Shown one piece after another: positions 5,850 to 60,517 of a stretch of DNA of 64,000 bases. This stretch comes from Escherichia phage QL01. The notes beneath the pieces are model-generated. The model did not search any database, was not told the origin of the DNA, and saw only the letters and a list, made by a program, of their open reading frames with translations. The DNA is taken from the sequence record NC_028847.1; one strand, given 5' to 3'. The translations under genes were made by a program, and so were the position numbers. Numbering within the stretch: the stretch's first letter is position 1; each line of letters starts with the position of its first letter.

Positions 5850-6060
5850 TGTAAGTTTCCTTCCAGAAGTCGGTGCCTTCAGCAGTGATTTCACGGAACA
5901 CTGCATAGATAGGATTTTTATCGCCTTGATTTTCGTATACATAAACTGACGATAAATGAGAAAACGTATCAGAATGTTCCTTTTGAACCACGATTAAATC
6001 AGGGTTGAACAGAACATCTTCAAATTCTTCACGAGTAGAGTTCACAGTAACTTTAGCCAT
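5842..6060 (-). CDS. hypothetical protein
   Basis: 72 aa ORF downstream of promoter cassette 6091-6120. Confidence 0.45.
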   Translation of the reverse strand: MAKVTVNSTREEFEDVLFNPDLIVVQKEHSDTFSHLSSVYVYENQGDKNPIYAVFREITAEGTDFWKETYNA

Positions 6061-6090
6061 TTTATTTTCCTCTCATTTGTTGATAGGGTA

Positions 6091-6120
6091 ATAGTATCAC
6101 ACTACTACCCTGTTGTATAC
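6091..6120 (-). promoter_or_regulatory. early-type promoter cassette
   Basis: GTATAC -35 variant, 18 nt, TACTAT; conserved CCTATCAAC leader. Confidence 0.45.
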
Positions 6121-38897: not shown

Positions 38898-39160
38898 TGT
38901 AGGAATCGAGCTCCTTCTAGTGCGTCATCAAGATTATCAAACTCGTCGACATAATCAACACCGCCAACTTCGTCCTTCGCATAAAGCCAGTACTGTTTAA
39001 ATTCGTATTCGATGATGAAGTGGTCACCCTCAATCTGGAGAGCCCCATCACCATTAAATTGAACTGCATAACCGGTAAAGCGGACATCATTCAAGAGTTC
39101 TTCTTTCATAGCAATCATTTCCAAGTTTTTATCGTAATTAGAGAGTTTTATTTTAATCAT
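38894..39160 (-). CDS. hypothetical protein
   Basis: 88 aa acidic ORF. Confidence 0.4.
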   Translation of the reverse strand: MIKIKLSNYDKNLEMIAMKEELLNDVRFTGYAVQFNGDGALQIEGDHFIIEYEFKQYWLYAKDEVGGVDYVDEFDNLDDALEGARFLQ

Positions 39161-39486
39161 TTCGCTGCCTTAACAATTTTCAGGTCAACGAATTTTTTCT
39201 TACGTTGGTTTTTCATACGACGGATAGTTTTATCCGTGATTTCGCCAGGGCACCAAGCTTTGGATTCAACACCAAAGGCAGCGACATCGAATTCATCAAG
39301 GATATATTGAACCAGGATTTCACGAATACCGTTCTTACCAATTTTCTGGTCTTTAGAGTGCATGATTGGTAACAGTTCAGCAACCCATTGGTCAAGAACC
39401 TGAGGAGTTACAAAACCTGTTTTCATCAGTTCGTTTACTTTATCGAAAGCGAAAGAGTTCAGTACGTTTTTAATAGCTTGTGACAT
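39157..39486 (-). CDS. hypothetical protein
   Basis: Start at MSQAIKNV; leader nearly identical to that of gene at 45854-46696. Confidence 0.45.
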   Translation of the reverse strand: MSQAIKNVLNSFAFDKVNELMKTGFVTPQVLDQWVAELLPIMHSKDQKIGKNGIREILVQYILDEFDVAAFGVESKAWCPGEITDKTIRRMKNQRKKKFVDLKIVKAAK

Positions 39487-39554
39487 AATAATTTCCTCAG
39501 TTTTAAAGTTATAATCCGTAGGACCATTATACTCTGGTCCCAAGAGTTTGTAAA

Positions 39555-42437: not shown

Positions 42438-42815
42438 TTAACGGTCACACCACCAACTACTTACTTCAAAATCAGGTTCACCGTGTTCCCAGTACCAAGG
42501 ACCGACTGGATGCCAATCACCGTGTTCATCTTCTTCAAATTCTTCAGATTCAAGGCCAACGTATTGCCATTGGACTTCATAAGCAGTGCCGCCGATTACA
42601 ACAGTGTTCTCGCCATATGGATGGGCTACAGCAAAGTCTATACCTTCTGCTTTAGCCAACCAAACCATATATTCGTATAGTTTATATTCCAGGTCATCTT
42701 CGGTACCATCACCTAGAAAAATGGTTTGTTCGTTTAATTCAATCATTTGAAGTTCCAGAATGAAGCACCAACCAGAAATAAAGGCCAACAAATCATAGAC
42801 GTCAACCACCAACAA
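42438..42815 (-). CDS. hypothetical acidic Trp-rich protein
   Basis: 125 aa; track start appears to be TTG with AGGTGA SD; start uncertain. Confidence 0.35.
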   Translation of the reverse strand: MLVVDVYDLLAFISGWCFILELQMIELNEQTIFLGDGTEDDLEYKLYEYMVWLAKAEGIDFAVAHPYGENTVVIGGTAYEVQWQYVGLESEEFEEDEHGDWHPVGPWYWEHGEPDFEVSSWWCDR

Positions 42816-42900
42816 AAGTCACCTGAATCATCTAATTTAGCTAGGGTCTTAGCATAACCAATACCGATGATAAGATACAAAACAACCAACATTAATTCAA

Positions 42901-43164
42901 TCATTTGAAATACGCTCGCAGTTGGTCAAAGCCACCAATATGACTTCCATCAGGGGCAAATACTTGCGGCATGGTCAAACCGATTTGAGATTCGCGACCA
43001 AGCGCAGCCAGGAGTTGAGCAATCTTCTCATCATCAAATACGCCTTTTTCCGGCATCACGTTAATGAATTCGTAAGGTTGTTTCTTAACATCAAGCAGAC
43101 GTTTGGCATTATCACAGAAAACACAACGGTGAATATTTGAATCATAACCATAAACTTTAAACAT
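42901..43164 (-). CDS. nrdC: thioredoxin (glutaredoxin-like) NrdC
   Basis: 87 aa; near-identical to T4 NrdC, CVFC active site. Confidence 0.9.
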   Translation of the reverse strand: MFKVYGYDSNIHRCVFCDNAKRLLDVKKQPYEFINVMPEKGVFDDEKIAQLLAALGRESQIGLTMPQVFAPDGSHIGGFDQLRAYFK

Positions 43165-43402: not shown

Positions 43403-43700
43403 TTTCTTCTCGCTCAAATTTATGTTTACAATGGCGGCATTTGTAACGAAGATTACTAGTCTGCCAATGGACCAATTGAACCTGTTCTGTGCCGCACTTA
43501 GGACAGTTAGGAACATTCTTAGAAGCTTGTTCTCGTCGTGCGACCATAGCCATTACAGCATCCCAATTAACGGCATCATCATAATCATCACAACCATGAA
43601 TTTTACCAACCAATTCAACTTCAACATCCGCGGCTTTAATAAATTTCAATAAACCAGTATTAGATGCTGAAGCAATATCTTCAGCTAAACGTTGTTTCAT
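43389..43700 (-). CDS. zinc-ribbon protein
   Basis: 103 aa; C-terminal CPKCG...CRHCKHKF. Confidence 0.45.
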
Positions 43701-44707
43701 TTCAGCAGCTCCAGAGCCTGTTCAAGACGGTCTAAACGATTGGTAGACTCTTCCCAAAGTTTCTTGGCAGCAGTATATTGGCCAGTCAGTTTTTTGTTGA
43801 TAGCAAGGGCGTCTTTATACGCTTTTTCCAAGGCAACGACTTCCGGTAACTTGGATTTAGTAATTGGTGTAGGGGCCATGATAGGGCTGTTCAAGTCGTT
43901 AATCAAATCTTCTAATGTAGCAGGCTCTTTATCAGTGTTCACAATTTCCTCACATTTTTCTTTGTAAATTTCAGCATCAGTTTTTGGAACGGTACATTTG
44001 ATTTCACGGACTGTTACTAAGACCTCATATCCTTTCCAGCCTAAGTGGTGTTTAACTTCTTGGGTCTCATATTTCTCTACGGTATCCATCAGAGCTAAAG
44101 CTTGTTCGATAGTATTCAAGGTATCGTAAGCAATATCTTGATACTTTACAACTTCCGCATCATCTTTAGGTTTCCTATTAGGTGACCAAATAACAGAAAT
44201 AATAGCTTTTCCTTTATAACTATTTGTTTTAATCATGCAATTAGCCATCGGGTGAATAGTACGACAATCACCGGAAACTATAGTTTTAGAGGCCGCTTTG
44301 AGAATTAATGCAGAGTTAGCCTTGAATTCGCTAACCCAACGTTGCGGAAATAAACTATTAGGGTCCATACCTTTAATTTTGATATAACCTTTTATGGTAT
44401 CACCAAACCATTTGTAGCTAACAACACGGTTGGAACCTGGATATTTCTCTTTACCGAACTCAGAAAGGATGTCCTTATTGACCAGGCGCGAAAGCAGTCG
44501 AGAACCTTTAAATGTTTTAATGATATCATGAATGCACAAACGGCCTGCAATCTTTTCGATTTCAGCTTTGAAACAGCGCGATAATGCATCATCAATTTGG
44601 TCGACCCATTTATTGATATTAGAAACTATTACCTCGTATGGGGTTAACGGAGGGGTGTTGGTAGTGATATACGTAGTAAAGGCATTGATGTATTCAGTAC
44701 GAGTCAT
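43697..44707 (-). CDS. hypothetical protein with C-terminal coiled coil
   Basis: 336 aa; own promoter cassette 44734-44763. Confidence 0.5.
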   Translation of the reverse strand: MTRTEYINAFTTYITTNTPPLTPYEVIVSNINKWVDQIDDALSRCFKAEIEKIAGRLCIHDIIKTFKGSRLLSRLVNKDILSEFGKEKYPGSNRVVSYKWFGDTIKGYIKIKGMDPNSLFPQRWVSEFKANSALILKAASKTIVSGDCRTIHPMANCMIKTNSYKGKAIISVIWSPNRKPKDDAEVVKYQDIAYDTLNTIEQALALMDTVEKYETQEVKHHLGWKGYEVLVTVREIKCTVPKTDAEIYKEKCEEIVNTDKEPATLEDLINDLNSPIMAPTPITKSKLPEVVALEKAYKDALAINKKLTGQYTAAKKLWEESTNRLDRLEQALELLK

Positions 44708-44733
44708 GATATTCTCCTCAGTAGATTTAAAAG

Positions 44734-44763
44734 ATTATACTCCATCCATCCTTGGATGTAAAC
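44734..44763 (-). promoter_or_regulatory. early-type promoter cassette
   Basis: GTTTAC, 18 nt, TATAAT. Confidence 0.55.
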
Positions 44764-44764
44764 A

Positions 44765-45658
44765 TTATTTTAGAGCTAATACTGCCGCGCGGAGCTTGTC
44801 ACGCTGGAGTTCCATGTTCTTGATGCGAATCAATACGTCTTGAATACTCTTTTTCTCATCTTCGATCTGGCCGTTTAAACGGTGGATTGATTCCTGGAGG
44901 TGGTCCTCATGATACTTCTCGATAGGTTTCATCGTAGGGTTAGTAACCACCAAAGAATTCTCGGGTTTAATTTTCCAATGATACGGTTCAGAATTGAATG
45001 GACTCGGTACAGCCGTGGTTTTGAATCTGTCATAGGCTGCATACTGGCCTACGCTGTCACATGATACTGCAGAGATACGACGTTCCATTTGTGGTTCCTT
45101 TTGTTGGGATTGATAAGGGGCATAAGACAAAAGATATTCACGAGTTAGTTTAATATTAAAATAAACTGCATCAGCCCGCTCAAAACAATCAGCATATTCA
45201 TCGGTTGTAACTTTATATGATTCTACTGCCTTAATACGGGTCATTGCCTCTCTGAATAAGGTTTCGAATGCTTCACGAAGAGCCTTATTGCCTTTTGAGG
45301 TGGGACGGAAACGAACTTGAATACCGTCAGGCAGAATATTAATGACTAGGTTACGAGCCGTAAAATTAATATTCTTGATATTGACAGGAACCGTAGAAAT
45401 ACGTCCTGCGGTAGCCAAGAGGTCTTTGATATTAGCTCGCAGTGTTGCACCAAATAAATGAGCAGGGCAACGGCAATAATCGTTCAAAGAACTAATATAA
45501 GTCCCTTTACGACCTACACCATAAGTATAATTACCATTACAAATATGGCCAAAGTCTGCCAGCCGATCGATAGCGATACGACGAGTCGTGTCATGGTCAT
45601 AGATGGAATATTCTTTACGTGTTTTAATGTTCATATCAGAGTCCAAATAATTTTTCAT
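44765..45658 (-). CDS. hypothetical protein with C-terminal coiled coil
   Basis: 297 aa. Confidence 0.5.
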   Translation of the reverse strand: MKNYLDSDMNIKTRKEYSIYDHDTTRRIAIDRLADFGHICNGNYTYGVGRKGTYISSLNDYCRCPAHLFGATLRANIKDLLATAGRISTVPVNIKNINFTARNLVINILPDGIQVRFRPTSKGNKALREAFETLFREAMTRIKAVESYKVTTDEYADCFERADAVYFNIKLTREYLLSYAPYQSQQKEPQMERRISAVSCDSVGQYAAYDRFKTTAVPSPFNSEPYHWKIKPENSLVVTNPTMKPIEKYHEDHLQESIHRLNGQIEDEKKSIQDVLIRIKNMELQRDKLRAAVLALK

Positions 45659-45851
45659 AGAGTTTAGCGATAGGCCACAGAATTAGCATACATAACCAGG
45701 CAAAGCAAAATACTGGCCATACAAATGTAATGAATACCGCATCATAGCTTGATTCAATTTTAACCGGGTTCCACGCGCCTGTTTTATGCGCAATCAAAGC
45801 AGTAATAAATCCTATCACAAGATAAGCAAGAATAAAACCAATAATTTCCAT
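45636..45851 (-). CDS. small membrane protein
   Basis: 71 aa, two hydrophobic helices. Confidence 0.45.
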   Translation of the reverse strand: MEIIGFILAYLVIGFITALIAHKTGAWNPVKIESSYDAVFITFVWPVFCFAWLCMLILWPIAKLYEKLFGL

Positions 45852-45853
45852 AA

Positions 45854-46696
45854 TTAATCCTTAAGAAGATTTAGGATATCGATATATTTTTGACGTTCAG
45901 CCTTGGCTTTAGCATTCAGACCAGAGAGTCGGAAAATCTCATCATCTTGTTGTTGAATTGTAACATTCAAGCAAGTAAGCAAATTGCTAAAATACTCAAT
46001 CTGGGCTTGATGCTTCTCATTGCTGCGCACTGGCACAGGTTCCGGTTTAGGAGCTTGTTCTGAATGCTCTTCAGCCAGGTCTTTAATTTTATAAAGTTTA
46101 ATACGCTGACCCACCCCAGTTTCGGCATCACCAAAACTAAGAACACCGTGCTGTTCTAATTCGGACAAGGCTAATCGGAGATGGAACTTCCAGTTGTCAT
46201 ATTGACAACCACTAAAAGTTGAAATGGTATACTCATTTTCATTTCTGGGGTGGTTAACAATACTAAAGATAATCCAATCACCTGAACCATTAGTCTTAAA
46301 GGTCATTTGTTTATCTTGACCTTTTGCAAGGCGAGCACCTAGTGCTAGTAGACGTCGTTGGTTGGCATGAAGGTCTTGAACCACTTCGTCAAATGACATC
46401 GCCGGGATTAAACGACCATAGAGGTCGTAGCCTTTGTTATAATTTTTAAGAATAATTTTGGCATTAGCACGAGACAACATACCTGTTTTACGAAGAGTTT
46501 TCATGACCCGGTCTTCTAAGGTAAACGACCTGGTCTTGTCAAAGATTTTAGTGAAGTCATCTTTAACAGTACAAACGTTGAACTTGTCCCACATCATATA
46601 TAGAACCTTTTCAACCACTTCTTTAGAACTCGGAATACGACCAAATTTAACAACTTTTTTAACTTCAGAACGAATTTGATTAATTGCCTGTGACAT
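45854..46696 (-). CDS. hypothetical protein with C-terminal coiled coil
   Basis: 280 aa; starts MSQAI with same leader as 39157-39486. Confidence 0.5.
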   Translation of the reverse strand: MSQAINQIRSEVKKVVKFGRIPSSKEVVEKVLYMMWDKFNVCTVKDDFTKIFDKTRSFTLEDRVMKTLRKTGMLSRANAKIILKNYNKGYDLYGRLIPAMSFDEVVQDLHANQRRLLALGARLAKGQDKQMTFKTNGSGDWIIFSIVNHPRNENEYTISTFSGCQYDNWKFHLRLALSELEQHGVLSFGDAETGVGQRIKLYKIKDLAEEHSEQAPKPEPVPVRSNEKHQAQIEYFSNLLTCLNVTIQQQDDEIFRLSGLNAKAKAERQKYIDILNLLKD

Positions 46697-46759
46697 AATA
46701 ATTTCCTCAGTAAGTAATTAAGAACCTAGAACCATTATACCATCCTTGGTATAAAGCGT

Positions 46760-47284
46760 TTATGCGAGAACCGTCTTTAAACGCTCTTCAAATTTCTGAA
46801 GCAGAGCTTGGCGTTCAGCTCGTTGTGATTTGTACTGCTCGATACGACCTGAAGTGAGGGCGTACTGTTCGTTTACTGATTCCCGCATGAATTCAGGAAT
46901 CTCTTTACAAGCTTTGATTTCGTCAAACTTATCAATAACAGCTTGTTGTTCAGCAATCAGATTATCGAAATAAGCGATATCAGATTTAACGTTTGCCAGG
47001 TCAGATTCGGTAGGCATTAAACGTTTGTTACGTTCAGCTTGATAAGCTTGATTGGTTTCACGACTCCAGTGAAGAGTACGTTTTTTGTTAGTGTTTTTAT
47101 AGAGCTCTACAATACCAACTGAATCGATGACAACAATCCAGTTCCAACGGCTTTTGTAAATCTCTCCTCCAGATACAGTAATCTCATTACCACAAGCAAC
47201 GTCGTTAAAGAACTTGCTTTGTTTTTCGGATTTGAAATTACCATTGTTATAATTGATGAGTGAAAAAATATCTTTAGCGTTCAT
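46760..47284 (-). CDS. hypothetical protein with C-terminal coiled coil
   Basis: 174 aa; promoter cassette 47311-47339. Confidence 0.5.
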   Translation of the reverse strand: MNAKDIFSLINYNNGNFKSEKQSKFFNDVACGNEITVSGGEIYKSRWNWIVVIDSVGIVELYKNTNKKRTLHWSRETNQAYQAERNKRLMPTESDLANVKSDIAYFDNLIAEQQAVIDKFDEIKACKEIPEFMRESVNEQYALTSGRIEQYKSQRAERQALLQKFEERLKTVLA

Positions 47285-47310: not shown

Positions 47311-47339
47311 ATAGTATCATTTCTACTGGAGATGTAAAC
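47311..47339 (-). promoter_or_regulatory. early-type promoter cassette with inverted repeat
   Basis: GTTTAC, 17 nt, TACTAT; arms CTCCAGTAG/CTACTGGAG. Confidence 0.55.
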
Positions 47340-47692: not shown

Positions 47693-48673
47693 TTATTTCA
47701 GAAGTGTAACTTCAGCGATTTCGCTCCAGTCATTTTTATCGGTGGCAATGAAGTCCGCCAGATAAAGAGCTGTACGTAATGATACGTTACGAAGACGAGA
47801 TACATTAGCCTTCATCCATGCTAAAGCTTGGTAAGTCTCGGCATCAGTCAGACCACGGTTTTGCATCATATCAGTGGACAGGATAACGTCTTCAACACGA
47901 ACCATAATCTCTTCGTTCGAGTGAACTCCGAGGTCTAAGTAAACTGAACGCGATACTAAAGCCTGGAGGTGTGGAGCAAGTTTAGTTCCACGCTCTAATT
48001 CACGGTCAATATCAACGTTGGTGATGAACACGATGGTGCCTTCATACTCAAATTCTTTATCGATATTTTTATCATCAAGATAAGAACTTGAAGTGCTCCA
48101 GCACACCTTACGTTTTTCACCAGTATCCAATGCTGCTTTTAACAGGTTCAGGATATCCATATCAGAGAATACATCAACATCATCAATAAGAAGAACACTA
48201 TTAGGGCCGCGGTTATTCCAAAGCTGCTCGTAAAGACCGATTCCACTAATCTTTCCGTTGATTGATTTATATTCGATAGTTTCATTTTCGTGGGCATTCT
48301 GTAATGCTTTATCCAAAGAATATGTTTTACCAATACCTGCGGCACCAGAGATGATAAGGGAACGAATTTTACCATCGATGATTCCATTAGTCATCATGTT
48401 CATTACTTTAAAACGTTTGTTAATGCGATGTTTCATTTCTTCAGCGGATTCAGTAACAACTGCAGGAGCTTCAGCACCTTCCATTTCAACGTCACATTTG
48501 AACACCCATACACCACGTTCAACACCATCAATCTGTACAAATACCTTACCATCACCGAGGTGAGCTTCGGATTCATGAATTTTATTAGGGAACCAGGTTT
48601 TACCTGAACTCATGAACGTACCGGAGATTACATTACCGCGATAGATACCTTTGTTGATTTTGATAGTTAACAT
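47693..48673 (-). CDS. AAA+ ATPase with N-terminal extra domain
   Basis: Start at Met49 because the longer ORF covers promoter 48711-48739; Walker A GAAGIGKT, Walker B LLIDDVD. Confidence 0.55.
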   Translation of the reverse strand: MLTIKINKGIYRGNVISGTFMSSGKTWFPNKIHESEAHLGDGKVFVQIDGVERGVWVFKCDVEMEGAEAPAVVTESAEEMKHRINKRFKVMNMMTNGIIDGKIRSLIISGAAGIGKTYSLDKALQNAHENETIEYKSINGKISGIGLYEQLWNNRGPNSVLLIDDVDVFSDMDILNLLKAALDTGEKRKVCWSTSSSYLDDKNIDKEFEYEGTIVFITNVDIDRELERGTKLAPHLQALVSRSVYLDLGVHSNEEIMVRVEDVILSTDMMQNRGLTDAETYQALAWMKANVSRLRNVSLRTALYLADFIATDKNDWSEIAEVTLLK

Positions 48674-48710
48674 TATATTCTCCATTTCACTCAGTAGATT
48701 TGATAGGTCC

Positions 48711-48739
48711 ATAATAACATGCTCTACGAAGGTGTAAAC
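48711..48739 (-). promoter_or_regulatory. early-type promoter cassette
   Basis: GTTTAC, 17 nt, TATTAT. Confidence 0.5.
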
Positions 48740-48762
48740 TCTTTTTTGCACTAAACCCAAAA

Positions 48763-48782
48763 AAGGAACCCGAAGGTTCCTA
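48763..48782 (-). terminator. intrinsic terminator
   Basis: Stem AAGGAACC/GGTTCCT, UUCG loop, U6 tract. Confidence 0.6.
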
Positions 48783-49022
48783 AATTGCGCTCCAAAAATT
48801 ATGGAAGCGTATATCATTTATAGCCCAGTTAACAAATTGTCTTGTCTGTTTAGGCGTAGGTTTGCACACGTACTTGATATTGACTCGACGTCCGGTTTCT
48901 TTACAGACAGCTTCAAGATACCAACGTCGGGTTTTATGGGGTCTTCCATATGATAAAAAGACCTTCATTTCTTCGTTATCGATAATAAGAGTTGTGGTTG
49001 TCAAGGTATACCTCTTCAACAA
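48780..49022 (-). CDS. hypothetical protein
   Basis: 80 aa; stop lies inside terminator stem. Confidence 0.4.
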   Translation of the reverse strand: MLKRYTLTTTTLIIDNEEMKVFLSYGRPHKTRRWYLEAVCKETGRRVNIKYVCKPTPKQTRQFVNWAINDIRFHNFWSAI

Positions 49023-51870: not shown

Positions 51871-52246
51871 ACGTCAGCAAATACTTAGTCTGGTAAAAGA
51901 CGCCAGTGATATCGTCCAAAGTCGACTGGATGGCCTTAGGAAGTGTATCATAGATTTTATCAGATGCTTTAAGAAGCTCGTCAAGGAAATCTACAGGGTC
52001 CTTAGGCAAGTCTGAAGCAGACGGTAATGATGCTTTATATTCTTTGCCACTGAATCCAAGATATTGCTCACTAAATTGGTCCAGCGGTCCTTGAACTTCT
52101 ACATAATAGAAGTCATACGCTTTGTGTCTTGCATAGCTTTTGGTTTCTAAATGGGCTGACTTAAAATAGGCTAAAGAAACCAGTAGCCAACCAATATAAG
52201 AATCCACTTCAGACCCTCGACTGGGTACGAAATCATTGAACTTCAT
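51863..52246 (-). CDS. hypothetical protein
   Basis: 127 aa; terminator after stop. Confidence 0.45.
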   Translation of the reverse strand: MKFNDFVPSRGSEVDSYIGWLLVSLAYFKSAHLETKSYARHKAYDFYYVEVQGPLDQFSEQYLGFSGKEYKASLPSASDLPKDPVDFLDELLKASDKIYDTLPKAIQSTLDDITGVFYQTKYLLTLE

Positions 52247-60288: not shown

Positions 60289-60517
60289 CGTCTCGTTCCC
60301 ATGATTGTTTAAAAATATCTTGCATAATAATTTGAAGTCTATTTTCTGATGATGGACTTTCACTATCAGACACTTGAAGCATATAGTCACCAATAGGACA
60401 GAACATATCCATATCGCTTTCTAAGTCTTCTTTAATTTTCTCTTCTGATGTTCCGGTATCATAGGAATACAGGTAAGAATCACATGACTCAGATTTAATA
60501 TAAATTGCAATACTCAT
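60281..60517 (-). CDS. hypothetical acidic protein
   Basis: 78 aa. Confidence 0.4.
   Translation of the reverse strand: MSIAIYIKSESCDSYLYSYDTGTSEEKIKEDLESDMDMFCPIGDYMLQVSDSESPSSENRLQIIMQDIFKQSWERDDE

What the first reader, a model, noticed from the sequence alone, without database searches (positions are those of the whole stretch)
43697..47284. Block of four consecutive genes each ending in a coiled coil and each with its own early promoter
ORFs of 336, 297, 280 and 174 aa all end in heptad-like Lys/Glu/Leu-rich segments and are separately promoted. Two genes here and one at 39157-39486 share an identical leader and MSQAI N-terminus, suggesting duplication or recombination of 5' modules. 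The block lies in the nrdC-tk interval, which is hypervariable among T-even phages and a typical site for host-takeover or anti-defence cargo.
Basis: partly seen in the sequence, partly recalled or inferred. Interest (0 to 1): 0.5.

Follow-up and report, generated by a model that had tools for sequence, protein, structure and literature searches.

The report
T-even phage coiled-coil accessory gene family
The block is the Dhakavirus version of phage T4's nrdC.4, nrdC.5, nrdC.6 and nrdC.8 genes; three of them look like diverged copies of one protein design (variable head, floppy linker, conserved coiled-coil tail), and the T4 counterpart of one is known to disarm a bacterial immune protein, so the others are reasonable candidates for similar roles.

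Summary
The window is a Dhakavirus (T-even phage). The four ORFs are real and match T4 nrdC.4, nrdC.5 (Pfam DUF7235), nrdC.6 and nrdC.8.

The coiled-coil observation largely holds. Of the 51 large coding-strand ORFs, these four rank 1-4 for C-terminal heptad score. Heptad periodicity is significant for NrdC.4, NrdC.5 and NrdC.6, but not for NrdC.8. AlphaFold gives single 51- and 54-residue terminal helices for NrdC.5 and NrdC.6.

The other claims are only partly right:
- Only nrdC.8 and nrdC.4 have early-type promoters.
- nrdC.6 has the homologue of the mapped T4 middle promoter PnrdC.7.
- nrdC.5 has no promoter and follows an overlooked 71-aa membrane ORF.
- The MSQAI leader is shared by two genes (nrdC.6 and 55.2), not three.

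Profile, PHROG, bridging-sequence and Foldseek evidence together suggest that NrdC.3, 4, 5 and 6 are one fast-diverging paralogous family whose tail is at least as conserved as the head. NrdC.8 is a separate family.

T4 NrdC.5 counteracts the Dsr1 sirtuin defence (eLife 2022), so an anti-defence or host-range role is the best guess. It is untested here. The genes are known, the family view is a modest addition, and interest is moderate.

The parts
47311..47338 (-). Early-type promoter upstream of nrdC.8 (TTTACA-N16-TACTAT, with TG before the -10)
   Evidence: The cassette is conserved in T4 and Mosigvirus. In T4 the nrdC.8 Shine-Dalgarno GGAG is a mapped RegB cleavage site (PMC1702504).
46760..47284 (-). 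nrdC.8 (174 aa): conserved N-terminal domain of about 85-90 aa plus a helical tail; a separate family
   Evidence: phrog_2274 E 1.8e-102. 69% identical to T4 NrdC.8. 51 distant relatives share the N-domain motif SLxKxNNGxFKSEKQ...D..G...W.R. Relatives carry precomputed Pfam PF26901. Heptad periodicity is not significant.
46734..46758 (-). MotA-box-type middle promoter (CGCTTTA-N12-TATAAT); predicted start near 46727; homologue of T4 PnrdC.7
   Evidence: T4 PnrdC.7 start site 53325 is listed in PMC2988021 Table 1. That base is the A 7 nt after the same TATAAT, and the window core is 40/42 identical. The MotA box consensus and 12 +/- 1 spacing are given.
46680..46711 (-). 32-nt leader plus first codons (ACTGAGGAAATTATTATGTCACAGGCAATTAA; MSQAI) repeated at 39470-39501 in front of gene 55.2
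   Evidence: the repeat finder family D1, 94% identity. Exact 22-mer, chance expectation about 1e-4. Present in both genes wherever both were captured in the Dhakavirus loci, and only in nrdC.6 in Gaprivervirus.
45854..46696 (-). nrdC.6 (280 aa): helical N-region, beta-hairpin/helix/beta-hairpin unit, disordered linker, 54-residue terminal helix
   Evidence: phrog_2257 E 8e-126. AF2 mean pLDDT 78.9. Heptad period 3.45, p = 0.014. Foldseek cross-hits shared with the NrdC.5 model.
45857..46021 (-). NrdC.6 C-terminal coiled-coil helix (residues 226-280)
   Evidence: With the preceding cap (residues 220-280) it is the most conserved part of the protein: 66% identity against 24-51% for the rest, versus a Tequatrovirus orthologue.
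45636..45851 (-). orf71: small protein with two transmembrane segments between nrdC.6 and nrdC.5 (not in the finding)
   Evidence: phrog_7899. Two hydrophobic segments at 3-21 and 39-57. Only 49-69% identical among Dhakaviruses whose flanking genes are mostly far more similar. Its start follows the nrdC.6 stop by 2 nt, and its stop lies 1 nt before the likely nrdC.5 start.
44765..45658 (-). nrdC.5 homologue (297 aa as a mechanical ORF; likely start 45634, giving 289 aa): alpha/beta N-domain, long disordered linker, 51-residue terminal helix; no promoter of its own
   Evidence: Pfam DUF7235 E 3e-121. 25% identity to T4 NrdC.5, E 1e-17. AF2 model. Heptad period 3.45, p = 0.012. Most homologues start at MNIKTRKEY.
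44768..44923 (-). NrdC.5 C-terminal coiled-coil helix (residues 246-297)
   Evidence: AF2 helix 246-296 with pLDDT 73-91. Unbroken heptad register.
44734..44762 (-). Early-type promoter upstream of nrdC.4 (TTTACA-N17-TATAAT) with a CCAAGGATGG spacer
   Evidence: The same spacer recurs before the NrdC.3-, NrdC.4-, NrdC.5-like and NrdC.6/7 genes in T4, VR7 and Mosigvirus.
43697..44707 (-). nrdC.4 (336 aa): paralogue of T4 NrdC.3; terminal 48 residues are heptad-periodic
   Evidence: phrog_1435 E 1.7e-146, and T4 NrdC.3 falls in the same PHROG. hhalign NrdC.4 vs NrdC.3: 98% probability, E 6e-13. Heptad period 3.50, p = 0.002. No structure model was made.
43700..43843 (-). NrdC.4 C-terminal heptad segment (residues 289-336)
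   Evidence: 67% identity to T4 against 40% for the N-domain.

Best explanation
WHAT IT IS
The block is a conserved set of non-structural accessory genes of T-even phages, expressed before the late phase.

SHOWN
- The genes are orthologues of T4 nrdC.8, nrdC.6, nrdC.5 and nrdC.4.
- They are under purifying selection.

INFERRED FROM SITES (no RNA data for this phage)
- They are organised as three transcription units:
  - early promoter -> nrdC.8
  - MotA-type middle promoter -> nrdC.6, orf71, nrdC.5
  - early promoter -> nrdC.4 and the genes downstream of it

INFERRED FROM SEVERAL MODERATE LINES OF EVIDENCE
- NrdC.4, NrdC.5 and NrdC.6, together with T4 NrdC.3, are diverged tandem paralogues sharing one architecture:
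  - a fast-diverging globular N-terminal domain
  - a disordered linker
  - a C-terminal helix of about 50 residues with an unbroken heptad repeat. It is the best-conserved part of NrdC.4 and NrdC.6 and somewhat better conserved than the rest in NrdC.5.
- NrdC.8 is an unrelated family that merely has a helical tail.

PROPOSED MECHANISM (inference)
- The coiled coil makes each protein a homo-oligomer.
- The variable N-domains bind and neutralise particular host proteins.
- For T4 NrdC.5 the target pathway is the Dsr1 sirtuin (NADase) defence. The sister proteins would act on other host defence or host-range determinants.
- Copy number changes by recombination at the repeated promoter and leader cassettes.
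For: ORTHOLOGY

PURIFYING SELECTION
Omega is 0.05-0.3 for all genes, with gene-by-gene mosaic identities among Dhakaviruses.

TRANSCRIPTION UNITS

ARCHITECTURE
- AF2 models of NrdC.5 and NrdC.6.
- Heptad periodicity for NrdC.4, NrdC.5 and NrdC.6.
- The four genes rank 1-4 of 51 for C-terminal heptad score.
- The tail is more conserved than the head.

PARALOGY
- hhalign NrdC.4 vs NrdC.3: 98% probability, E 6e-13.
- hhalign N-domains of NrdC.5 vs NrdC.3/4: 75% probability, E 2.5e-5 over 137 columns.
- The three weak N-domain alignments agree in register.
- phrog_26858 is hit by NrdC.4 (6e-5), NrdC.5 (6e-4) and the Mosugukvirus protein PM2_b309 (9e-15). PM2_b309 also hits the NrdC.6 and NrdC.5 PHROGs.
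- BLASTP bridges through PM2_b309.
- The NrdC.5 and NrdC.6 models hit the same BFVD proteins: IME523 at 1.5e-7 and 1.7e-9, PM2_b309 at 3.6e-5 and 2.4e-8, plus fHe-Yen9-01 and PS2.
- A shared N-terminal TRxEY-type start in NrdC.3, NrdC.4 and NrdC.5.
- Tandem position with the same CCAAGGATGG promoter cassette.
- Copy number ranges from 0 to 4 across genera.

FUNCTION
- T4 nrdC.5 in trans restores plating of a deletion phage on cells carrying Dsr1 (PMC9391042).

CASSETTE-MEDIATED GAIN AND LOSS
- A 158-bp indel flanked by an 18-nt repeat.
- The PeSL literature.
Against: - Direct BLASTP among the four window proteins finds nothing.
- The first hhalign runs on shallow alignments were insignificant.
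- No link between NrdC.6 and NrdC.3/4 exceeds 20% probability.
- HMMs built from the last 22 residues of each family retrieve only their own family. The similarity of the tips (...L..A(L/I)..LK) is therefore not shown to be homology.
- Foldseek TM-scores are low (0.2-0.5) and can be inflated by the long helix.
- NrdC.4 was not modelled.
- The window's NrdC.5 is only 25% identical to the T4 protein that was tested, so anti-Dsr1 activity may not be conserved.
- No function is known for NrdC.4, NrdC.6 or NrdC.8.
- There is no gene-wide positive selection.
- The oligomeric state was not tested.
Confidence: 0.55

Rival explanations
1. The four proteins are unrelated phage ORFans. Amphipathic or heptad-like helical C-termini are common in small phage proteins. 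The adjacency reflects only the accumulation of accessory genes in a plastic region.
For: - No pairwise BLASTP similarity.
- Shallow-profile hhalign was insignificant.
- The tail-HMM test was negative.
- NrdC.8 is clearly a different family.
- Pfam and PHROGs keep the families separate.
Against: - NrdC.4 and NrdC.3 are related at 98% probability.
- Enriched profiles give 75% probability for NrdC.5 vs NrdC.3/4, with mutually consistent registers.
- There are bridging sequences and a hub PHROG.
- The two models share Foldseek targets.
- The domain order is identical, and the tail is the best-conserved part in NrdC.4 and NrdC.6 and modestly so in NrdC.5.
- The four genes rank 1-4 of 51.
Confidence: 0.15
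2. The family is real, but its job is not anti-defence. The proteins might instead be host-takeover or phage-physiology factors, for example modulators of host enzymes, nucleoid or envelope, or scaffolds for early phage complexes. On this view the Dsr1 effect of T4 NrdC.5 is indirect.
For: - The genes are conserved and syntenic in hundreds of genomes and are under purifying selection, without gene-wide positive selection.
- The T4 experiment shows genetic suppression only, not binding.
- The neighbours are nucleotide-metabolism and RNA-repair-type genes: nrdC, and the NrdC.10 ATPase and NrdC.11 nucleotidyltransferase.
Against: - The genes are dispensable in T4 on laboratory hosts. They were lost in evolved clones without loss of growth on MG1655.
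- Divergence between genera is extreme: NrdC.5 is about 23% identical while its neighbours are 76-82% identical.
- Copy number varies from 0 to 4 across genera. Both patterns are typical of host-range factors.
Confidence: 0.25
3. This concerns the sub-claim about the shared leader. The identical leader and MSQAI start of nrdC.6 and 55.2 may be kept alike because it is a shared translational operator, for example for the RegA repressor. It would then not be a footprint of 5'-module recombination.
For: - GAAAUUAUUAUGUCA matches the RegA SELEX consensus aaAAUUGUUAUGUAA at 12 of 15 positions and overlaps the AUG, as RegA sites do (PMC3014915).
- In T4, 55.2 is one of only two tested intergenic GGAU sites cut by RegB, which marks it as post-transcriptionally controlled.
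Against: - Matches at 3 or fewer mismatches are not enriched in the window: 11 found against 8.1 expected.
- Gaprivervirus 55.2 has a different leader and start (MTASI), so the identity is specific to the Dhakavirus lineage. That fits a conversion or recombination event better.
- An adjacent indel flanked by an 18-nt repeat shows that such microhomologies are used in recombination.
Confidence: 0.2

Closest known systems
T4 NrdC.5 (counter-defence against the Dsr1 sirtuin system; Srikant, Guegler & Laub, eLife 2022, PMC9391042)
   Same: - Same position in the nrdC-nrdC.11 interval.
- Same Pfam family (DUF7235, 405 bits).
- Alignable over about 90% of its length (E 1e-17).
- Same C-terminal helix.
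   Different: - Only about 25% identical.
- About 40-50 residues shorter at the N-terminus.
- Preceded here by a small membrane ORF.
- Activity against Dsr1 has not been tested for this variant.
- The mechanism is unknown even in T4.
T4 nrdC.3, nrdC.4, nrdC.6 and nrdC.8 (uncharacterised ORFs of the nrdC-mobD region)
   Same: - Orthologous by sequence and synteny: NrdC.4 44%, NrdC.6 49% over the core, NrdC.8 69% identical.
- Same promoter cassettes, including the mapped middle promoter PnrdC.7.
   Different: - Dhakavirus lacks nrdC.3 and nrdC.7 and instead has orf71 between nrdC.6 and nrdC.5.
- The T4 reference nrdC.6 is frameshifted and lacks the coiled-coil tail that this phage has.
PeSL regulatory cassettes of T4-type phages (Arbiol et al. 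2010, PMC2839356; Comeau et al. 2014, PMC4122927)
   Same: - Repeated early-promoter cassettes flank accessory genes in a plastic region.
- The T4/PST-type consensus is TTTACW-N17-TAYWAT. The nrdC.4 site fits it exactly; the nrdC.8 site has the same hexamers with a 16-nt spacer.
- Evidence of microhomology-mediated gain and loss next door.
   Different: - No stem-loop was found next to the nrdC.8 or nrdC.4 promoters. Only the promoter before nrdC.10 has an adjacent terminator-like hairpin.
- One cassette is a middle promoter.
T4 internal proteins IPI, IPII and IPIII (variable payloads sharing a common targeting module) - an analogy from my own knowledge, plus the IPIII result in PMC9391042
   Same: A small set of adjacent, fast-diverging, dispensable proteins that share one conserved module. 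At least one member counters a host defence.
   Different: - The shared module there is an N-terminal capsid-targeting sequence, and the proteins are packaged into the capsid.
- Here the shared module is a C-terminal coiled coil.
- The genes are expressed from early and middle promoters.
- No sequence relationship was tested.

Membership tests
NrdC.5 / Pfam DUF7235 (PF23882) | Match to the family HMM above the gathering score | tested here: met
   405 bits against a cutoff of 30, full length. phrog_2351 E 2.8e-111.
NrdC.5 / Pfam DUF7235 (PF23882) | Position between nrdC.6 and nrdC.4 in the nrdC-nrdC.11 interval | tested here: met
   (VR7 annotates the orthologue as nrdC.5).
NrdC.5 as an anti-Dsr1 counter-defence protein | Restores phage growth on cells expressing Dsr1 | not testable with these tools
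   Shown only for the T4 protein (PMC9391042). The window protein is 25% identical to it.
NrdC.4 family (phrog_1435; precomputed PF26897) | Full-length match to the family profile | tested here: met
   E 1.7e-146 over residues 1-336. All homologues carry PF26897.
NrdC.6 family (phrog_2257; precomputed PF26899) | Full-length match to the family profile | tested here: met
   E 8.3e-126. Homologues carry PF26899.
NrdC.8 family (phrog_2274; precomputed PF26901 Phage_T4_Y05D) | Full-length match to the family profile and the conserved N-terminal motif | tested here: met
   E 1.8e-102. The N-domain motif is conserved in 45 aligned relatives. PF26901 is recorded on relatives.
Coiled coil | Long uninterrupted alpha-helix | tested here: met
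   NrdC.5 helix 246-296 and NrdC.6 helix 226-279 in the AF2 models. NrdC.4 and NrdC.8 were not modelled.
Coiled coil | Hydrophobic repeat of period 3.5 (heptad a/d positions) beyond chance | tested here: met
   NrdC.4 p = 0.002, NrdC.5 p = 0.012, NrdC.6 p = 0.014. This used my own periodicity test, not COILS or Marcoil.
Coiled coil (NrdC.8 only) | Hydrophobic repeat of period 3.5 beyond chance | tested here: not met
   p = 0.78 (last 80 residues), 0.72 (last 27) and 0.27 (residues 95-127). Pro and Gly interrupt the tail.
Coiled coil | Forms a dimer, trimer or higher oligomer | not testable with these tools
   No multimer prediction or experiment was available.
T4-type early promoter | -35 (G)TTTAC(A/T), spacer 17 +/- 1, -10 TA(C/T)(A/T)AT, just upstream of the gene | tested here: met
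   Met for nrdC.8 (47338-47311) and nrdC.4 (44762-44734). Not met for nrdC.6 or the 297-aa gene. These are consensus matches only, with no transcript data for this phage.
T4 middle (MotA-dependent) promoter | MotA box (a/t)(a/t)(a/t)TGCTTtA placed 12 +/- 1 bp from an excellent -10 | tested here: met
   AAACGCTTTA-N12-TATAAT at 46761-46734, with one deviation (C in place of T). It is 40/42 identical to the element at the mapped T4 PnrdC.7.
PeSL cassette | Early promoter coupled to an adjacent stem-loop | tested here: not met
   The terminator scan finds a hairpin only at 48781-48764, next to the nrdC.10 promoter, and none next to the nrdC.8 or nrdC.4 promoters.
Proposed NrdC.3/4/5/6 superfamily | Significant profile-profile similarity of the N-domains | tested here: inconclusive
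   NrdC.4 vs NrdC.3: 98% probability. NrdC.5 vs NrdC.3/4: 75% (E 2.5e-5). NrdC.5 vs NrdC.6: 33%. NrdC.3/4 vs NrdC.6: 20%. The registers are mutually consistent.
Proposed NrdC.3/4/5/6 superfamily | Shared fold or shared structural neighbours | tested here: met
   The NrdC.5 and NrdC.6 models share four BFVD targets at E from 1e-9 to 1e-2. TM-scores are low, and NrdC.4 was not modelled.
Proposed NrdC.3/4/5/6 superfamily | Homologous C-terminal tip detectable by sequence profile | tested here: not met
   22-residue tail HMMs find only their own family. hhalign gives 87-90% probability over 15-25 columns for NrdC.5 vs NrdC.6/PM2_b309, but coiled-coil bias applies.

The most novel reading that the evidence does not exclude
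NrdC.3, NrdC.4, NrdC.5 and NrdC.6 form a tandem array of counter-defence proteins built on one scaffold. The conserved C-terminal coiled coil would oligomerise them, possibly into mixed assemblies of different paralogues. Each fast-evolving N-domain would neutralise a different host immune protein, with Dsr1 being the one target pathway identified so far. Phages would tune their host range by duplicating, swapping and losing these cassettes at the repeated promoter and leader sequences.
Probability: 0.2. Interest if true: 0.7.

Novelty: new member of a known kind. Interest (0 to 1): 0.42.

Why it matters
- **Candidates for screening.** T-even phages are the main model for phage-host arms races and a mainstay of phage therapy. 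About half of their genes have no known function.
- **A shared design.** One gene of this block is known in T4 to defeat a sirtuin-type immune system. If its neighbours share its design, that gives three or four concrete candidates per phage to screen against defence-system panels.
- **A structural hypothesis.** It also suggests how such inhibitors might be built: a constant oligomerising tail with a variable head.
- **Better use of the T4 reference.** The corrected transcription map and the frameshift in the T4 reference nrdC.6 help anyone using T4 as the reference for these genes.

Tried and rejected
- **All-vs-all BLASTP of the window proteins:** nothing significant.
- **hhalign on the first, shallow family alignments:** 8%, 0.5% and 0.7% probability. 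Signal appeared only after adding sequences from other genera.
- **Tail-only HMM search of all six-frame ORFs:** negative for cross-family detection. I therefore do not claim homology of the C-terminal tips.
- **Sequence search of the PDB with four family profiles:** nothing below E 0.004.
- **Pfam, NCBIfam and PHROGs:** only 'unknown function' families.
- **dN/dS:** no gene-wide positive selection, so I dropped that form of the arms-race argument.
- **Genomic context of distant NrdC.8 relatives:** one lies four genes downstream of ardA, but this did not recur in the other places examined, so I rejected it as evidence.
- **RegA-operator reading of the shared leader:** 12 of 15 positions match, but such matches are not enriched in the window. 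It is kept only as a low-confidence rival.
- **The DRT1 paper's mention of nrdC.8:** it reports only a transcript-level change and treats the gene as a nucleotide reductase, which the sequence does not support.

Full report
**Identity of the region**

The window is a T-even phage of the genus Dhakavirus. The 3.8-kb block is 99.4% identical to phage vB_EcoM-E33, 99.0% to WG01, and about 92% to JS10 and Bp7.

In JS10 the ORFs are annotated as nrdC.4, an unnamed gene, nrdC.6 and nrdC.8. They lie between nrdC and nrdC.10/nrdC.11, upstream of tk. T4 has the same order, plus nrdC.3 and nrdC.7.

BLASTP against the T4 proteins gives:

| Window protein | T4 counterpart | Identity |
|---|---|---|
| 336 aa | NrdC.4 | 44% |
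| 297 aa | NrdC.5 | 25% (E 1e-17, about 90% coverage) |
| 280 aa | NrdC.6 | 49% over the core |
| 174 aa | NrdC.8 | 69% |
| neighbour | NrdC.10 | 76% |
| neighbour | NrdC.11 | 82% |

The 297-aa protein matches Pfam DUF7235 at 405 bits. All four match PHROGs of unknown function along their full length.

**The coiled-coil observation**

All four ORFs exist as described.

- **Heptad score.** I fixed a simple heptad score before any other analysis. Applied to all 51 minus-strand ORFs of at least 150 aa, it ranks the four genes 1-4 for the best heptad window in the last 60 residues.
- **Periodicity.** On family alignments, the mean hydrophobicity of the terminal 48-54 residues peaks at a period of 3.50 (NrdC.4), 3.45 (NrdC.5) and 3.45 (NrdC.6). 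The corresponding p values against shuffles are 0.002, 0.012 and 0.014. The a/d register is unbroken.
- **Structure models.** AlphaFold2 predicts a globular N-terminal part, a disordered linker and one long terminal helix for both proteins modelled.
  - NrdC.5: helix 246-296.
  - NrdC.6: helix 226-279, mean pLDDT 79.
- **NrdC.8 differs.** Its tail shows no significant 3.5 periodicity (p = 0.27-0.78) and contains Pro and Gly.

I had no standard predictor such as COILS, no multimer modelling and no model of NrdC.4. The coiled-coil claim is therefore supported for three proteins and open for the fourth.

**The promoter claim**

Reading the coding strand together with the consensus scan:

- **nrdC.8 and nrdC.4.** nrdC.8 has TTTACA-N16-TACTAT and nrdC.4 has TTTACA-N17-TATAAT. 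The published T4/PST-type early consensus is TTTACW-N17-TAYWAT (PMC4122927). The nrdC.4 site fits it exactly; the nrdC.8 site has the same hexamers with a 16-nt spacer.
- **nrdC.6.** It is preceded by AAACGCTTTA-N12-TATAAT.
  - This fits the MotA box consensus and spacing of T4 middle promoters (PMC2988021).
  - The element is nearly identical in T4 and Gaprivervirus and slightly diverged, with a 13-nt spacer, in Mosigvirus.
  - The review lists a mapped T4 middle promoter, PnrdC.7, starting at coordinate 53325.
  - That base is the A located 7 nt after the same TATAAT, and the window's core is 40/42 identical.
- **The 297-aa gene.** It has no promoter in this phage, in VR7 or in T4. The orf71 stop lies 1 nt before the likely nrdC.5 start at 45634.

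The likely units are therefore nrdC.8 alone, then nrdC.6-orf71-nrdC.5, then nrdC.4 and the genes after it.

Early-type promoters are frequent here. There are 16 matches in the window, all on the coding strand. In T4 the nrdC.8 Shine-Dalgarno GGAG is a mapped RegB site, which fits early expression (PMC1702504).

**The shared leader**

nrdC.6 and gene 55.2 share a 32-nt stretch at 94% identity, covering the ribosome-binding site and the first codons (MSQAI). It is the longest direct repeat in the 10-kb region. It contains an exact 22-mer, with a chance expectation of about 1e-4.

It is present in both genes in every Dhakavirus locus that captured both. In Gaprivervirus it is found only in nrdC.6, and 55.2 there starts MTASI. 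MS(Q/V)(A/V)IN is ancestral to NrdC.6. The 55.2 copy therefore looks like a lineage-specific conversion or recombination event.

No second gene in the block has the leader. nrdC.4 shares only CTGAGGA and the CCAAGGATGG spacer.

A RegA-operator reading is possible, since 12 of 15 positions match the SELEX consensus. It is not statistically distinctive.

**Are the proteins related?**

*Negative results*

- Direct comparisons of the window proteins are negative.
- Shallow profile comparisons are also negative.
- HMMs built from the last 22 residues of each family find only their own family. The visible similarity of the tips (...ALELLK...AVLALK...ILNLLKD) is therefore not demonstrated homology. 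The simple terminal pattern is still rare: it occurs in 5 of 191 coding-strand ORFs and 0 of 264 ORFs on the other strand. That pattern was defined post hoc.

*Positive results after adding the same interval from other genera*

- **Profile comparison.**
  - NrdC.4 vs NrdC.3: 98% probability, E 6e-13.
  - N-domains of NrdC.5 vs NrdC.3/4: 75% probability, E 2.5e-5 over 137 columns.
  - The weaker NrdC.5-NrdC.6 and NrdC.3/4-NrdC.6 alignments place the same residues opposite each other.
- **Bridging sequence.** A 309-aa Mosugukvirus protein (PM2_b309) hits NrdC.6 proteins (E 1e-5 and 2e-6) and the Mosigvirus NrdC.5-like protein (E 1e-4) by BLASTP.
- **PHROG links.**
  - PM2_b309 matches the PHROGs of NrdC.6 and NrdC.5.
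  - It also matches phrog_26858, which is hit in turn by the window's NrdC.4 (6e-5) and NrdC.5 (6e-4).
  - T4 NrdC.3 falls in the NrdC.4 PHROG.
- **Foldseek.** The NrdC.5 and NrdC.6 models hit the same uncharacterised proteins of other T4-like genera. These are IME523, PM2_b309, fHe-Yen9-01 and PS2, with E values from 1e-9 to 1e-2.

I conclude, with moderate confidence, that NrdC.3, 4, 5 and 6 are diverged tandem paralogues. NrdC.8 is not one of them. It has an N-domain of about 85 residues with 51 distant relatives at E ≤ 0.001 and a variable helical tail.

**Evolution**

- **Distribution.** The genes are present and syntenic in about 570 (NrdC.5) to 745 (NrdC.8) phage records.
- **Copy number.** The count of 260-340-aa genes differs between genera.
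  - T4 has four.
  - Dhaka-, Gapriver- and Mosigviruses have three.
  - The Karam- and Mosugukviruses and a Klebsiella phage each have two such genes in the interval. Only the ~310-330-aa one showed any link to the family.
  - The Gualtar- and Pseudotevenviruses examined have none.
- **Selection.** All genes are under purifying selection, with omega 0.05-0.3.
- **Mosaicism.** Identities among close Dhakaviruses are mosaic gene by gene. orf71 is especially variable, at 49-69% aa identity.
- **Tail versus head.** Between this phage and T4-type orthologues, the terminal helix is at least as conserved as the rest of the protein. Identity is 67% against 40% in NrdC.4, 66% against 24-51% in NrdC.6, and 33% against 23% in NrdC.5.

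**Function**

The only experimental datum in the searchable literature concerns T4 nrdC.5. A T4 clone that had lost the gene could not infect ECOR17, or MG1655 carrying ECOR17 dsr1. Expressing nrdC.5 in trans restored infection (PMC9391042). Binding was not shown.

The other lines gave nothing:

- No family has a solved relative.
- NCBIfam has no names for these proteins.

My mechanistic proposal is an inference from the architecture, the conservation pattern and this single precedent. In it, an oligomerising tail carries a variable binding head directed at host defence proteins.

**Verdict**

These are known genes of unknown function in a well-studied phage group, and one orthologue has a published counter-defence role. 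The promoter and leader details are partly wrong. The family relationship and the conserved-tail/variable-head design are a modest new reading that makes the neighbours testable candidates.

Noticed in passing
window 42734-42751 and 42892-42909 (with L001 5270-5380 and L017 9700-9990): An exact 18-nt direct repeat (TTCAAATGATTGAATTAA on the coding strand) covers 5 nt upstream of the start codon plus the first four codons (MIEL) of two adjacent genes. It flanks a 158-bp segment encoding a 53-aa hydrophobic ORF between nrdC and 49.3. JS10 lacks exactly this segment and keeps one repeat copy; VR7 has the segment. This is a clear case of microhomology-mediated cassette gain or loss.
   Followed up: yes
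L010 (T4 NC_000866) 5997-6110, i.e. record about 51996-52109: The T4 reference nrdC.6 is frameshifted after ...NKQIEEL. The conserved tail ISIQQYDDEIFRLSGLSSKAKSEREKLIKIVDLLKS* is still encoded in another frame, running up to just before nrdC.5. It is identical to other Tequatrovirus NrdC.6 proteins (P0174, a cluster of 940 sequences). This is either a real mutation of the sequenced T4 strain or a reference error.
   Followed up: yes
window 47693-48817: The mechanical 374-aa ORF of nrdC.10 overruns its probable start (ATG at 48673; the family profile aligns from residue 49). The extension contains a terminator-like hairpin (48781-48764) directly followed by an early-type promoter (48738-48711), which is a PeSL-like composite element. 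NrdC.10 has AAA/STAND-type NTPase hits, and NrdC.11 is a nucleotidyltransferase conserved in about 1500 phage records.
   Followed up: partly
window 45636-45851: orf71, a membrane protein with two transmembrane segments, is 49-69% identical among Dhakaviruses whose flanking genes are mostly far more similar. It looks like a local exchange hot spot. T4 has a different membrane ORF (nrdC.7) at a different position in the block.
   Followed up: partly
protein P0173 (Shigella phage Sf25 NrdC.6 homologue, 378 aa): It carries an internal duplication of about 95 residues, including the linker and part of the core domain, as seen in the family alignment.
   Followed up: no
alignment A1, protein P0016 (phage NC-G NrdC.5): It is mosaic within the gene. 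The N-terminal half resembles the VR7/Gaprivervirus type, while the linker and tail resemble the Dhakavirus type. This suggests intragenic recombination between head and tail modules.
   Followed up: no
L018 816-3283 (metagenome contig with a distant NrdC.8 relative): A distant NrdC.8-family gene lies four genes downstream of an ArdA anti-restriction gene, within a run of small genes. This was not seen in the other places examined.
   Followed up: partly
window 39481-39495, 46691-46705 and 60320-60334: Start regions that resemble the RegA translational-operator SELEX consensus at 12 of 15 positions, with the ATG in register at the first two (the third was not checked). The overall number of such matches is not above chance.
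   Followed up: partly
proteins P0206 (533 aa) and P0222 (405 aa): The NrdC.8-type N-domain also occurs inside larger proteins. One is fused downstream of a region matching a PHROG annotated as a virion structural protein.
   Followed up: no
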